Shown here piece by piece: positions 41,636 to 46,444 of a stretch of 46,444 nucleotides of DNA. Position numbers and translations under genes: made by a program. Positions within the stretch are counted from its first letter, which is position 1. The number at the start of each line of letters is the position of its first letter. Source of the DNA: Ionaspis alba (taxonomy: Eukaryota); the NCBI GenBank assembly GCA_964255285.1, contig CAXUUL010000050.1:1-46444 (forward strand), read 5' to 3'. Under the pieces are notes generated by a model. It searched no databases. It was not told where the DNA came from and saw only the letters and a program-made list of their open reading frames with translations.

Positions 41636-43456
41636 ATGCCTGTCTGTGCATTCTATCAACGAGGGACTTGCAGATATGGAGGTAAAGTTCTGGTCGTCAC
41701 CCCAGACGCTTGCCTAGTATTGATTGTCTTCGTAGATAATTGTCGTTACGAGCACCCCGGTGCGAACAGAAGACCAATAACGTCTCAGAACCGCTTTGGA
41801 GTCCTGAATTCAGAAAGTCCAGGACATGGCAGTAGAGGTAAGAATGATCGACTTTTTAAATTCATTCAGTGCACGAACGAGTCCTTTTGTTGATTATAAT
41901 ATGCAACAATCAGTTCTTGGGCAAAAGCGTGTATGATTTATGCGAGACCTTTGGAGTTCTGTCATCTGTTCTCTTATGGCAGTTTCTCCTTTCCGATTCA
42001 GCTCGATGTTATAAACATAGCGTAATTGCATCCTGACGCTTATAGGAACATCTTCTTACGATAGGAACACACCGTAAGCTCGCCCTGCCACTTACGCCAA
42101 GTCACACTTAACCTTGACTTTAGCCCATATCAGTTGGACAAAGACATCATCAGAACGGATCTTGCGAAGGAGCGGCCCATCTGGATACTTTCCGCTTATG
42201 GACCGGGAAAGCAGCCGCCAATACAGCTCTTTGGCGGTCTTCCGCGAGAACAGAGCTTTGAGGAACTAAGACTTCGACACTATGAACTAGCCGCTCAAGG
42301 ACACCAGCAGCAAGCCATTCAGGAAACTCAGACTCTTGTGAACAATGCCGAACAACAGATGCGAAGTACTTTGAACGACATCGATGGCGCCATTAGATAC
42401 ATCGTCGAAGGCGAGAATCAGCATCCGAATCGGATAGACATCTGTAACGCCAAAGGAGTCGGCCCATCATCTGGCATTGCAAAGCCTCCCCCAGCACCTT
42501 TCAACCAGTCCTCAACGTTTGGGCAGCCTTCAGCGCCTGTGATGTCAGGAACTACCTTCGGACAGCCATCCATTTCTACATTTGGCAAGCCTTCGTCATC
42601 GTTTGGTCAAGTTCCGACGCTCGGGAAACCAACAAACCCTTTCGGGACTGCAGCAGGACCAGCTTTCGGTCAACCGCCGACTCTTGGTGCGCCTCAGACT
42701 TCTACATTCGGTCAAGCATCAACATTTGGCAAGCCTTCGACAGCGACGTCGATATTCGGTCAACCGTCGACCACGCCCTCTCCTTTCGGTCAGCCATCCA
42801 ACCTTACCTCTACATTCGGTCAGCCGTCAAACCCTTCTACTTTCGGCAAGCCAAGTAACCCCTTCATTCAAAACGCCCTTCAGACGTCAACTCCCGGTCA
42901 ACCGTCCCAAACCAGTGGATTCACGAACCAGCCCGTCTCAGCTTTCACAACGGGTATCGCCTCCTCGAACATCCCCGCACAATCCAATCCTTTCGGTCAA
43001 CCTCCCGCTTCACAACCAAGCACCTTCGGCCAACCCACCGCGGCCACAACCACAGCTCCCTTCAGCAGACCCGCCAATAGCGCAACCGGCTTCGAAATAA
43101 CCCATCACACCTCCTCGATCCCGTTCGGTGTTGGAAGTTCCGGATCCAACACCTTACCCTCTATTAAGAATGGCAGCACCCGCAAGGATGCTCGCGGCAA
43201 GCTTATAGAATGGAAAGGGCAGCGCATATCCTACATCGACAACGAACCTTGTTTCAAGCGTCCGGACGGGCAATGGGAGAAGGTGTGGTTCCCAGATGGG
43301 TCTCCGGCATTTACTAAAGAGCCGAATCCGCCGGCGGACGCTTATAATGAGGAAATGAAGGGCAGATATACGTATTTGAGGGAGCATGGGACGTTCAAGG
43401 ATGGGGTTATGCCAGAATTGCCGCCAATGAAGGATTGGTGTTCTTGGGACTTTTGA
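41636..43456 (+). CDS. AMO1: CCCH zinc-finger FG nucleoporin Amo1/Nup42-like
   Basis: N-terminal CAFYQRGTCRYGDNCRYEH finger after splicing, PIWILSAYGP, EQSFEELRL and many FGQP/FGKP repeats. Exons 41636-41681, 41736-41837, 42046-42073 and 42124-43456. Confidence 0.85.
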
Positions 43457-43751
43457 GCAATGGGCGAGGTACAAGTCGGGCTCTTAGGGCATGATTGGGA
43501 ACAGGCGCGGAGCGGTGTGACTTAGGACTAGAGAAGCTCGCTGCACTATAAGCAGAGCGCGGAGTTGTTCAGGTTGAGTACATTAACGATGGTCCTCAGG
43601 AGAAGGCGTGGATCTGCATCTGGAGAAGTCTTTGGGCTGAAGCAAACTTTGTGCTTGAGTGTTGCTTCGAATCCCGGGAACTACTCGCTAGCTACGAGAT
43701 ATTGTTTGTCCGCATAGCAATCACACCTCTTAGCGACATGCAGAACCACGC

Positions 43752-44272
43752 TTAAGACCCGGCAATTGTAACCTCCACCTCGACACCAGCCTCAATGTTG
43801 ATGATGATCTGCTTCACGACCTCAGTCGGAGCATTCAGACTGCGCAAACCAGCATTAGCCTTTTTTCATAAACATGGCTCTCTCCAGAAAAGCAATCCCC
43901 CCATTTCTGCAGAAAAGACCATCAAACTCACTCAATCAACCGCTTATGGATCCTCATCTCAAACGTATCCCATGTCTTACTTCCCTCACCACAAGGCGTC
44001 TTCCTCGTCGTAACCTTCAAGCTCTTGGTCGGCAGACGGACTGGTCCCTTGACACGCAGGTCCTTTGATTTGGCACGCTCGATCAGCTCTTGGCAGACCT
44101 TTTCGAGGGATTGCACTTTGCGCGAGGTAAGAGTGATACGGATTTTGTGAATTTTCTGGTTCCAGGAAAATGAGTTAGTATAGAATCGGTGGAGGTATGT
44201 AAGAATCTAAGACGATGGAACAGTACGTACAGGACCTTCGCCGAAGTCTTTCTCGGGCTTTTGGTAGGACAT
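43752..44272 (-). CDS. RPS20: 40S ribosomal protein S20 (uS10)
   Basis: [67 protein letters not shown]. Introns 44230-44156 and 43931-43840. Confidence 0.98.
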
Positions 44273-44701
44273 CGTTGCGGTTGCGTGGGTTTGACTCTTG
44301 GAGGCAAGGATTCAGATGCTGTGGAATGTGACGAGTCTATTGAACGGTATCTTAGGTATGCGACACGCCAATCAAGACCTGAACAGCTGGGTTCGGTAAA
44401 GTGATGAAAGGCTGGTGAGATACGGATGTCGAGGTCGTAGCGTGAATATGGGAAATTCAATGTGCGCGGAGGAATGCTTGGCGTGGAATGCACCTCGTTT
44501 AACCATATCAACATTGTTGTTTGCTCCAGTGACCAGTCAGCGTCGTCATGAGCCAAGACCTTCAGAAGTATTGATGGTTATTTATTTTGTAGTTTAATCA
44601 CCGAGATTCTCAATAATTTAAGATGGACAGAGAGGACTCTCCAAACTTCAATTTTACTGATATTTCGATTCCTAGCAATATCTTTGCTTCCACGACCAGA
44701 G
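44273..44701. promoter_or_regulatory. Divergent promoter region RPS20/CUE3
   Basis: 429 bp between head-to-head start codons, with an AT-rich core at about 44570-44670. Confidence 0.55.
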
Positions 44702-46444
44702 ATGAATTTACCACCTTTTGCACCTTTTCCTGCGGCCAATTTCCGTAAAGAGATTGTGCCAGAAGAGTGGGAAGCGTGCCTAGAAGCATGGATATTGCTA
44801 GCTCAGGGTTGCCTCCTTCTACCTCCCAAAGCCTTTACTTCGAAAGCTAGAACGGACAAGTCATTATCCGATTTTTTGATTTCGTATGCAAGAGAGGTTG
44901 CGGTCGAGAATAGTGTGTATATGGAAACTCCCAAAGACAAGGACCTGAAGCGTTATTGTTTCCTACTGACCCATCGAACTCTCATGGAGGAGAATCCGGC
45001 GCCATCTCCTTTACTCAATTGGGCGTTTCTCTGCGACTTTTCTACTGTCTATGTTAAGAGTACGAGTCTTCGCTCCCTCATGGATACTCTATGGCAGCAG
45101 AAGAAGCTTGAGCAGAAGGTTACAATGCTGGAGAATAAGAAGTCGCTAGTTAGGCTTCTTGATGGCCCTAAGTCAACGACGTCAGAGGACCTTGACCAGC
45201 ATCTACGGCGGACAGGAGCTCTGCTCAAAGCATCACATCACTATGGACAATTTCTGATGGTTGGCTCAGACCTGCTGGATTCCTTAGCATCAGCGTGGTC
45301 TGTTGCAGCCAAAGACTTACAACGGAAATTAGTCGCCATTACCTATCTATGTCTGACATCTCTGCTAGAGGGCGAAAAAGCAAACACGTCTCTTCTCATA
45401 GATCACCTCTATTCTCTTAGATCCGCTGCAGACAAGCAGTCATCCAATTCGAACTCCTCCACACTCCTCTCCCAGATCGTCTCAACTACTCCTTTCCTCC
45501 GCAAGTTACAAGACCGCATCATAGGACGCGATGCCAGCCGCGCCAAATCTCTACTCACCCACCTCGAGCACCTCAAATCCACCAGCGGCACCAAATCAAG
45601 AACCCGCATCCGCCGCAGAATCGACAAAGGCAAGAACGCAGACCGCGATTTCCACCACCTCCCTGCAGACCCGATTCTTATCTCCCAGCTCCAAGACCTC
45701 TTTCCCCACCATAGCACCTCCTACCTCTCTACCCTCCTCACCTACTACTCCAACAACTCAGACCTCCTAACCGCTCACCTCCTCGACAATAATCTCCCTC
45801 CACATCTGCAATCCCTCGACCAAGTATCCGACCTTTCCACCCCAAGTCACCCCAGCCACTACTCCGATCTCGCCCCTCACCTAGCCCCAGGAACCACCCC
45901 GTCCACCTCAATCCCAGAACGGCACAACATCTTCTCCAACGACGCCTTCGACAACCTCGCCATCTCCCCCTCCCAGCTCCACCAAGGCCGGCGCAACCAA
46001 ACGCAAACGGCCTCCGACCTCCTCGCAGATACATCGACCCGCCCCGCCAAAAGCGCTATCTACGCCGCGCTGGCCGCCTTTGACTCCGACGATGACGAGC
46101 GGGACGACACCTACGATGTCGAAGATGTCGGCGGGACAGTGGACACGAGCCTTGCGCTCCCGGGCGGGGAGGCGAACAATGACAAGGCCGGTGCTGAGAG
46201 TGATAGGAACGAGGAAGTACTGTTCAAGGCCTGGAAGAGCCGGCCGGAGGATTTTGCAAGGGATGCGGCGACTAGGAGGGGGGAGCAGAGGGGTGTTTTG
46301 AAGAGGGAGACGGGGATGAGCGATGAGGCTATTGAGGGGTGGGCGGTTATGCTTGGGAGAGAGCCTGGGAGGGTGAGGAGGTTAGAGAGGAGGTTTGCCA
46401 GTGAGGTTGGGAGGCAGAGGGTGTTGCCTGGGACGGCGTGGAGG
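44702..46444 (+). CDS. CUE3: CUE-domain protein Cue3/Rqt3/ASCC2-like, 3'-truncated by window end
   Basis: Missing from the ORF track because no stop falls in the window. The frame from ATG 44702 reads MNLPPFAPFP...IVPEEWEACLEAW, LIDHLYSL, CUE-like ISQLQDLFP...LTAHLLDNNLPPHL, RHNIFSND, FDSDDDERDDTYD and GMSDEAIEGWAVML. Confidence 0.82.
   Translation, partial: MNLPPFAPFPAANFRKEIVPEEWEACLEAWILLAQGCLLLPPKAFTSKARTDKSLSDFLISYAREVAVENSVYMETPKDKDLKRYCFLLTHRTLMEENPAPSPLLNWAFLCDFSTVYVKSTSLRSLMDTLWQQKKLEQKVTMLENKKSLVRLLDGPKSTTSEDLDQHLRRTGALLKASHHYGQFLMVGSDLLDSLASAWSVAAKDLQRKLVAITYLCLTSLLEGEKANTSLLIDHLYSLRSAADKQSSNSNSSTLLSQIVSTTPFLRKLQDRIIGRDASRAKSLLTHLEHLKSTSGTKSRTRIRRRIDKGKNADRDFHHLPADPILISQLQDLFPHHSTSYLSTLLTYYSNNSDLLTAHLLDNNLPPHLQSLDQVSDLSTPSHPSHYSDLAPHLAPGTTPSTSIPERHNIFSNDAFDNLAISPSQLHQGRRNQTQTASDLLADTSTRPAKSAIYAALAAFDSDDDERDDTYDVEDVGGTVDTSLALPGGEANNDKAGAESDRNEEVLFKAWKSRPEDFARDAATRRGEQRGVLKRETGMSDEAIEGWAVMLGREPGRVRRLERRFASEVGRQRVLPGTAWR

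What the first reader, a model, noticed from the sequence alone, without database searches (positions are those of the whole stretch)
43752..46444. RPS20 (uS10) is head-to-head with CUE3/ASCC2, the reader of ubiquitinated uS10
Seen: the two start codons (44272 minus, 44702 plus) are separated by 429 bp, and the uS10 N-tail MSYQKPEK carries Lys5 and Lys8. Established: on collided ribosomes Hel2/ZNF598 ubiquitinates N-terminal lysines of uS10, and the CUE domain of Cue3/Rqt3 (ASCC2) in the RQT complex binds that K63-linked chain. Inference: a substrate and its quality-control reader may share a bidirectional promoter, tying RQT supply to 40S synthesis. The CUE3 gene is absent from the supplied ORF track and so is easy to miss.
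Basis: partly seen in the sequence, partly recalled or inferred. Interest (0 to 1): 0.7.

Follow-up and report, generated by a model that had tools for sequence, protein, structure and literature searches.

The report
Conserved RPS20–CUE3 pair with RNA hairpin
A ribosomal protein gene and the gene for the factor that recognises that protein on jammed ribosomes sit back to back in most filamentous fungi examined, but they were not switched on together in the one dataset checked, and the more interesting part is a small conserved RNA structure in the ribosomal protein gene's leader that may let it control its own production.

Summary
RPS20 (uS10; Lys5, Lys8) and a single-copy Cue3/ASCC2 orthologue start 429 bp apart, head to head. 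The fold matches human ASCC2 (Z 20.1) and yeast Cue3. The pair is kept in 31 of 35 informative metagenome clusters and in 23 of 25 named genomes, with several independent losses.

The co-regulation idea is not supported. On Aspergillus germination RPS20 rises 13-20-fold, while CUE3 falls to 0.67 and 0.45 in the two species that keep the pair. Three functionally unrelated divergent pairs of this window are also adjacent in Aspergillus. The best reading is a shared housekeeping promoter region that resists breakage. No genome-wide null could be computed.

The spacer also holds a 46-nt RNA structure in the RPS20 leader (44367-44412, minus strand). It was present in all 30 species-level spacers examined and shows compensatory changes. 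In 8 loci a predicted intron splits it and splicing restores it. It is absent from CUE3 loci that lost RPS20, and I found it neither in Rfam nor in two fungal RNA screens. It is probably an RPL30-type feedback site; its ligand is untested.

The parts
43752..44272 (-). RPS20/uS10 coding region, three exons (44272-44231, 44155-43932, 43839-43752), 117 aa, N-tail Lys5/Lys8
   Evidence: two lysines in the first 10 residues in 120 of 121 full-length fungal uS10 proteins examined
44273..44701 (.). 429-bp spacer between the divergent start codons (RPS20 leader plus the shared promoter region)
   Evidence: spacer 289-856 bp, median 398.5, in 30 species-level representatives
44367..44412 (-). Conserved structured RNA element in the RPS20 5' leader: outer stem, U-G or U.U pair plus C.C mismatch, short stem, 4-nt bulge, variable inner stem-loop; ends 94 nt before the ATG
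   Evidence: single copy in G000 by pattern
44477..44482 (.). GCCAAG promoter motif, RPS20-proximal copy, about 76 nt upstream of the TCATCAC core of the RNA element
   Evidence: motif in 26 of 30 spacers (shuffle mean 4.9, 0 of 150 reach it); 24 of 26 lie 60-130 nt upstream of the element
44552..44558 (.). Second copy, GCCAAGA, 144-150 nt upstream of the CUE3 ATG
44702..46444 (+). CUE3/ASCC2 orthologue, first 581 aa, cut by the contig end: helical N-terminal domain 1-297, CUE 327-363, acidic DDDERDDTYD motif, C-terminal four-helix region about 495-568
   Evidence: same domain order as yeast Cue3 (1-297, 298-360, 468-541) in PMC9938168
42065..43456 (+). FG-repeat ORF (Nup42-like; my label, no Pfam hit), tail to tail with RPS20; used as the control neighbour
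   Evidence: found on the RPS20 3' side in only 4 of 19 clusters with enough flank

Best explanation
RPS20 and CUE3 form an old head-to-head housekeeping pair of filamentous ascomycetes. It is kept mainly because the two promoters overlap in about 400 bp, so a break between them is costly, as for many functionally unrelated divergent pairs in these fungi (inferred). The shared region carries one GCCAAG-type site positioned relative to the RPS20 5' end (shown). RPS20 follows the ribosomal-protein growth programme while CUE3 is expressed at a low, roughly constant level (shown for Aspergillus only). The strongest constraint in the spacer belongs to RPS20 alone: a conserved RNA structure in its 5' leader (conservation and pairing shown; transcription inferred). 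It most likely binds a protein, most simply free uS10, to dampen translation, and splicing in lineages where an intron interrupts it, in the manner of yeast RPL30 (inferred, untested).
For: Pair retention is 31 of 35 clusters against 4 of 19 for the tail-to-tail neighbour. SRP14/SGD1, desaturase/phosphoglucomutase and ELYS-like/SMC4 are also adjacent in three Aspergillus species; the ELYS identity of Afu2g02165 is inferred from gene order. PMC2871058 reports that divergent, short-spaced pairs are the best conserved in fungi and lists many with unrelated functions. RPS3 of G000 is also head to head with an unrelated myotubularin-like gene. Expression is uncoupled. The pair was lost in a Lecanorales-type clade, in L054, in A. 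niger and apparently in Letrouitia transgressa. In L052 CUE3 has a new divergent partner, Inp1. RNA element: 0 of 500 shuffles reach the paired fraction, the both-sided changes or the covariation score, and slid controls fall to 27-42% paired. 50 of 51 model hits in 1.01 Mb are at the RPS20 leader and none is upstream of CUE3 genes that lost RPS20. In-silico splicing restores the fold in 8 intron-bearing loci.
Against: There is no genome-wide null, and 31 of 35 may be above average: SRP14/SGD1 is broken in all 4 metagenome clusters where SRP14 is seen. A substrate sitting beside its own reader is a priori unlikely by chance. Expression rests on one study with three conditions, and I did not see its replicate design. 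The window's own element has U.U mismatches at the two covarying positions and is not unusually stable alone (z -0.76). Only 3 of 12 pairs show both-sided change, and the count of such pairs did not beat shuffles (277 of 500). No resemblance to 18S rRNA above chance was found. Start sites were not mapped.
Confidence: 0.6

Rival explanations
1. One reading: a bidirectional promoter co-induces RPS20 and CUE3, so that RQT supply scales with 40S synthesis.
For: True orthologues of a substrate and its reader. Short conserved spacer. GCCAAG motif in both orientations, 17 versus 9. A GCCAAGA remains 189-207 nt upstream of CUE3 in one lineage that lost RPS20 (L024, L036, L044). A spliced, RNA-derived contig carries both genes and the spacer (L021 versus L078).
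Against: CUE3 falls while RPS20 rises 13-16-fold in both paired Aspergillus species. A. fumigatus CUE3 was not significantly up-regulated in any stress condition examined in bioRxiv 2020.08.31.275297. The motif's spacing is fixed to the RPS20 side (interquartile range 77-101 nt) and loose to CUE3 (168-245 nt). The pair was lost repeatedly.
Confidence: 0.1
2. The link is functional but reciprocal: the shared promoter favours RPS20 in growth and CUE3 in dormancy or stress, when stalled ribosomes need rescue.
For: In the two paired species CUE3 is 3.8x and 2.3x higher in conidia than in hyphae and drops at germination. In A. niger, where the pair is broken, it is flat (10.7, 8.5, 12.5).
Against: Three species in one study, and FPKM is compositional. 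A Gcn4/AP-1-like site is in only 6 of 30 spacers against 1.7 expected, one of nine motifs tested. No stress induction was reported.
Confidence: 0.15
3. The conserved leader element is not a regulatory RNA but a DNA feature, such as an initiator or a palindromic protein site at the RPS20 start. (TCATCANC as a Neurospora start-site consensus is recalled, not looked up.)
For: The invariant TCATCAC core lies at a fixed distance downstream of the GCCAAG motif, where a start site would be expected. Several central pairs never vary.
Against: Flanking pairs change on both sides, and G-U wobble variants fit only the RPS20-sense strand. An intron lengthens the DNA by 54-79 bp in 8 loci and its removal restores the RNA fold.
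Confidence: 0.1

Closest known systems
Yeast Cue3/Rqt3 and human ASCC2 (RQT/ASCC complex)
   Same: Helical N-terminal domain, CUE domain and C-terminal helical bundle in the same order and at similar positions. The CUE hydrophobic FP and LL motifs are kept. G000 also has a C2HC5 zinc-finger gene and two double-Sec63 helicase genes, the expected Rqt4 and Slh1/Brr2 types (not assigned further).
   Different: 13-17% identity only. This lineage's CUE departs from 12 of 31 well-conserved family columns and lacks the family segment aligned with ASCC2 E467/S470, the K63-specific second site in PMC8800115. Ubiquitin binding is untested. That the genes are unlinked in S. cerevisiae, S. pombe and human is recalled, not checked.
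Conserved divergent gene pairs of Pezizomycotina (Davila Lopez et al. 2010, PMC2871058)
   Same: Head-to-head orientation, spacer of a few hundred bases, retention across classes; ribosomal-protein genes paired with other housekeeping genes are common in their Table 1.
   Different: RPS20/CUE was not among the rows shown when the readable supplements were searched (first two places per term; Table S4 was too large to read). Here the two products are linked biochemically.
Yeast RPL30 (L32) autoregulatory RNA; fungal rpl30 and RPL12 5' UTR motifs (Li and Breaker 2017, PMC5640933; Gao et al. 2021, PMC8216456)
   Same: A short hairpin with a conserved internal loop in a ribosomal-protein leader. 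In 3 of 8 intron-bearing loci the unspliced form is predicted to pair the 5' splice site, and the spliced form refolds, as described for RPL30.
   Different: A different gene and sequence, with a pyrimidine-rich loop rather than a purine-rich one; no ligand shown. The published rps20 motif is in 3' UTRs of Saccharomycotina, and Gao et al. list no RPS20 structure.

Membership tests
Cue3/ASCC2 | N-terminal helical domain with the ASCC2/Cue3 fold | tested here: met
   6yxq_B Z 20.1, rmsd 4.3, 280 aligned; next rows Z 10.0 (yeast 7zpq_CB) and 9.9
Cue3/ASCC2 | Central CUE domain of the ASCC2 type | tested here: met
   Pfam CUE over its cut-off; family profile versus ASCC2 CUE 2di0, E 2.8e-13
Cue3/ASCC2 | Single orthologous copy in the genome | tested here: met
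   One gene split over contigs C50 and C830; four other CUE genes do not match the family query. The assembly is fragmentary.
Cue3/ASCC2 | K63-chain-specific second site (ASCC2 E467/S470 region) | tested here: inconclusive
   The family keeps a Ser at the S470-like place and the window's protein does not; sequence comparison only
Cue3/ASCC2 | Binds Slh1/ASCC3 and K63-ubiquitinated uS10 | not tested
   No complex prediction or assay was run
Co-regulated bidirectional gene pair | Head-to-head starts under 1 kb, conserved | tested here: met
   429 bp; 31 of 35 clusters; 23 of 25 named genomes by consecutive identifiers, which do not show orientation
Co-regulated bidirectional gene pair | Positively correlated expression | tested here: not met
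   Germination/conidia ratios: RPS20 15.5 and 12.7, CUE3 0.67 and 0.45 in the paired species; one study
Co-regulated bidirectional gene pair | One element drives both directions | not testable with these tools
   Needs start-site mapping and a dual reporter; no RNA run listed for this organism
Ribosomal-protein autoregulatory mRNA structure (RPL30 type) | Conserved secondary structure with compensatory changes in the gene's own leader or intron | tested here: met
Ribosomal-protein autoregulatory mRNA structure (RPL30 type) | Mimics the protein's rRNA site | tested here: inconclusive
   Longest words shared with one 18S-containing contig were no longer than for shuffles; sequence-level test on a partial, unplaced 18S only
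Ribosomal-protein autoregulatory mRNA structure (RPL30 type) | Bound by the cognate protein, with feedback on splicing or translation | not testable with these tools
   Needs binding and reporter assays

The most novel reading that the evidence does not exclude
Filamentous ascomycetes carry an undescribed structured RNA in the RPS20 leader through which excess uS10, or another 40S-head factor, feeds back on RPS20 translation, and on splicing in lineages where an intron interrupts the structure. The locus would then be a small control unit for the ribosome-collision signal: the substrate is held in check after transcription while its reader is driven, flat or reciprocally, from the same promoter.
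Probability: 0.35. Interest if true: 0.7.

Novelty: new member of a known kind. Interest (0 to 1): 0.5.

Why it matters
The pair alone is a tidy example of a known phenomenon and does not show the proposed coupling. The leader structure matters more. It is small, single-copy and conserved across at least four fungal classes. It has natural variants with and without an interrupting intron, so feedback on splicing and on translation can be tested directly in Aspergillus nidulans or Neurospora crassa. If uS10 binds it, it adds an autoregulatory circuit for the protein that carries the ribosome-collision ubiquitin mark. The lineages that broke the pair are ready-made controls for asking why divergent gene pairs persist in fungi.

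Tried and rejected
Sequence searches of the PDB did not reach yeast Cue3; only the fold comparison did. No RNA holder was listed for this organism, so expression here is unknown. Rfam gave only two chance-level hits over the spacer. A search for rRNA mimicry found nothing above shuffles, and G000 gave no 18S match under a reduced search. A Gcn4/AP-1-like site on the CUE3 side was considered and is weak (6 of 30). A C/D-snoRNA reading of the plus strand was considered because of its GTGATGA and rejected: the window's CTGA is not conserved, and wobble pairs and introns point to the minus strand. A recalled Neurospora locus tag found no paper. A paper search for the GCCAAGA motif gave nothing relevant, so its factor is unassigned; its likeness to the PacC site GCCARG is recalled only. 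Slh1 could not be found by name in the Aspergillus table. PMC10940619 gave nothing on this pair. Three look-ups of earlier scan findings gave nothing that bears on it. My first RPS20 query had an exon boundary off by one and was redone. No complex prediction was run.

Full report
Observation. The window is a whole contig of a fragmentary 18.3-Mb fungal assembly. The CUE-protein tree places the organism among Lecanoromycetes (class labels of the named rows are mine, recalled). RPS20 lies on the minus strand with three exons and encodes 117 aa starting MSYQKPEK. The plus-strand ORF starts at 44702, 429 bp away, and runs off the contig. Its last 49 residues are on contig C830, and no second copy was found. 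A public contig spans 43400-46434 without a difference, though it is probably the source sample.

Orthology. The protein has 1283 relatives among 8000 candidates scored, several named CUE3 or ASCC2 by their sources. A 64-sequence profile hits the ASCC2 CUE domain at E 2.8e-13 but does not reach yeast Cue3 by sequence. The predicted model (mean pLDDT 81.2) ranks the yeast RQT chain 7zpq_CB and human ASCC2 first and second in Foldseek, at weak E-values. It aligns to ASCC2 at Z 20.1, well above the helical-repeat background near 10; the yeast chain, at Z 10.0, is tied with that background. PMC9938168 (passages) gives yeast Cue3 a helical domain 1-297, a CUE domain 298-360 and a four-helix bundle 468-541, the same order as in the model. 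PMC9831982 (passages) confirms that the Cue3 CUE domain and the Rqt4 N-terminus each bind K63 chains, and that uS10 K6/8R abolishes RQC. One caveat: the window's CUE domain and that of its nearest relative depart from 12 of 31 well-conserved family columns, the most of the 64. They also lack the segment that aligns with ASCC2 E467/S470, the K63-specific site in PMC8800115 (passages).

Conservation of the pair. The metagenome scan kept the best 80 of 187 loci, which fall into 43 clusters at 80% identity. Eight clusters were too short to judge. Of the other 35, 31 have RPS20 head to head with CUE3 (3 of them scored by the RNA element alone) and 4 do not; at 65% identity the count is 20 of 24. 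The tail-to-tail neighbour is found in only 4 of 19. Consecutive locus tags or accessions show adjacency, but not orientation, in 21 of 22 further genomes where I could see both identifiers: 12 Teloschistales-type lichens, six Leotiomycetes, Glonium, Dothideomycetes NU457 and Trichoglossum. The exception is Letrouitia transgressa. A. fumigatus and A. oryzae keep the genes adjacent and A. niger does not. Three of the four negative clusters lie in one clade with Usnea and Alectoria and the fourth is separate, so there are about four independent losses. The sample leans to close relatives and has no identified Pezizomycetes, Orbiliomycetes or yeasts.

Is that more than background? I could not compute a genome-wide null. 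PMC2871058 (parts 1-3 of 7 read, supplements searched; Table S4 too large) reports that short divergent pairs are the best conserved class in fungi and tabulates many without an evident functional link. RPS20/CUE was not among the supplement rows shown. Three other divergent pairs of this window are adjacent in all three Aspergillus species: SRP14/SGD1, desaturase/phosphoglucomutase and ELYS-like/SMC4, the last inferred from gene order. In the metagenome loci ELYS/SMC4 is intact in 3 of 3 clusters and desaturase/phosphoglucomutase in 1 of 1, but SRP14/SGD1 in 0 of 4. Of three other ribosomal-protein genes of G000, RPS3 is head to head with a myotubularin-like gene, RPS22 faces an unidentified ORF, and RPS5 is in tandem. 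The pair is therefore well conserved but not shown to be exceptional.

Expression. [quoted passage not shown] In A. oryzae they are 612/599/7617 and 10.7/24.3/10.9. In unpaired A. niger they are 1017/253/5050 and 10.7/8.5/12.5. SRP14 and SGD1 rise together 3.6-69-fold in all three species, so the dataset can show co-induction of a divergent pair. A preprint (passages) found A. fumigatus CUE3 not significantly up-regulated in any condition it examined. The proposed coupling to 40S synthesis is thus not met. A reciprocal pattern in the paired species is a weak possibility.

The spacer. In 30 species-level spacers (289-856 bp), GCCAAG occurs in 26 against 4.9 in shuffles. It is found in both orientations, and 24 of 26 copies lie 60-130 nt upstream of the leader element. 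GCCAAGAYT is three times as common in G000 as its reversed control (487 versus 154), so it is probably a general promoter word. One lineage that lost RPS20 still has it about 200 nt upstream of CUE3, and two others do not. Spliced contigs identical to genomic locus L078 show both genes expressed in that species. Two of them begin 53 and 71 nt before the CUE3 ATG, and one covers the whole spacer; contig ends do not map start sites.

The RNA element. The strongest signal is TCATCAC, in 28 of 30 spacers against 1.8 expected, with TCATCA in 30 of 30. It is the 5' strand of a hairpin on the RPS20 strand, at window 44412-44367. I aligned 25 uninterrupted examples, chosen by hand from those found. 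RNAalifold predicts the outer stems. For my 12-pair structure, derived from these same sequences, 91% of cells pair, and three pairs change on both sides: 26-70 (AU 11, CG 10, GC 1), 27-69 (GC 8, UA 7, AU 3, UG 3, GU 1) and 35-61. No shuffle of 500 reaches the paired fraction, the both-sided cells or the covariation score. The count of covarying pairs (277 of 500) and of pair types (86 of 500) did not beat shuffles, and related sequences inflate such tests. A model-fitted alignment adds both-sided changes in the inner stem.

Where the element occurs. A covariance model gave 51 hits in 1.01 Mb. Fifty are at RPS20 leaders, 25 of them training sequences, and one weak hit lies elsewhere. None lies upstream of CUE3 genes that lost RPS20, and three intron-bearing loci were missed by the model but found by pattern. 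The pattern occurs once in G000. In 8 loci from 7 clusters, six in one Dothideomycete clade and one Sordariomycete-like, a predicted 54-79-nt intron with GT, branch site and AG splits the 3' strand at the same place. Removing it in silico restores the fold, and in 3 of the 8 the unspliced form pairs the 5' strand with the 5' splice site. Splicing there is predicted, not observed. Against the element: the window's copy has U.U mismatches at the two best-covarying positions and folds no better than shuffles (z -0.76), and no rRNA mimicry was detected.

Comparison with what is known. Rfam has no match. The rps20 motif of Li and Breaker lies in 3' UTRs of Saccharomycotina (passages and outline). 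Gao et al. list RPL12 and RPS13 structures but do not mention RPS20 in the main text (passages; supplements not read). My claim that neither the pair nor the element is in print rests on the paper searches in an open-access library, and subscription papers were not searchable. The closest mechanism is RPL30 autoregulation as summarised.

Verdict. The pair is real, orthologous and widely conserved. It is best read as an overlapping housekeeping promoter pair without co-induction (0.6), with reciprocal control (0.15) and co-induction (0.1) as rivals. The leader structure is well supported as a conserved RNA, apparently unreported, and probably a feedback site, with its ligand unknown. Novelty: new member of a known kind. 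Interest 0.5.

Noticed in passing
window:45653-45810 (CUE3 residues about 318-369): This lineage's CUE domain differs from the family at 12 of 31 conserved columns and lacks the segment matching ASCC2's K63-specific site, so it may bind ubiquitin chains differently or rely on Rqt4.
   Followed up: partly
window:20702-37327 and 42065-46444: Desaturase/phosphoglucomutase, ELYS-like/SMC4, SRP14/SGD1, dihydrolipoamide dehydrogenase, the Nup42-like gene, RPS20 and CUE3 form a reshuffled block. It is also clustered in Aspergillus (Afu2g01980-02170) and in loci L004, L067 and L069; divergent pairs tend to move as units.
   Followed up: partly
window:22581-22589: A GCCAAGACT copy lies in the 5' region between the divergent desaturase and phosphoglucomutase genes; the word is threefold enriched genome-wide over its reversed control. 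Its factor is unknown.
   Followed up: partly
L043, L051, L060, L074, L075, L076, L080, L070 (RPS20 leaders): An intron sits at the same position inside the RNA element in a Dothideomycete clade and in one Sordariomycete-like locus: either two gains at one site or many losses. L046, L057 and L067 have a leader intron just downstream of the element instead.
   Followed up: partly
L052:7806-9661; L053:8157-8843; L054:2399-3142: Where RPS20 is gone, CUE3's upstream neighbours are Inp1 (divergent), a GDSL lipase or an acyl-CoA dehydrogenase (both in tandem).
   Followed up: partly
L091:2027-3021 (G000 contig C20): RPS3 is head to head with a myotubularin-like phosphatase gene in this genome.
   Followed up: no
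window:18283-19863: A 526-aa ORF with no Pfam hit at E 0.001 whose C-terminal part has a motif pattern like a NYN/PIN-type nuclease (my impression, untested).
   Followed up: no
L090:1300-1500: The 18S-containing viral-collection contig has an AT-rich non-rRNA stretch inside the rRNA match, an insertion or a chimera.
   Followed up: no
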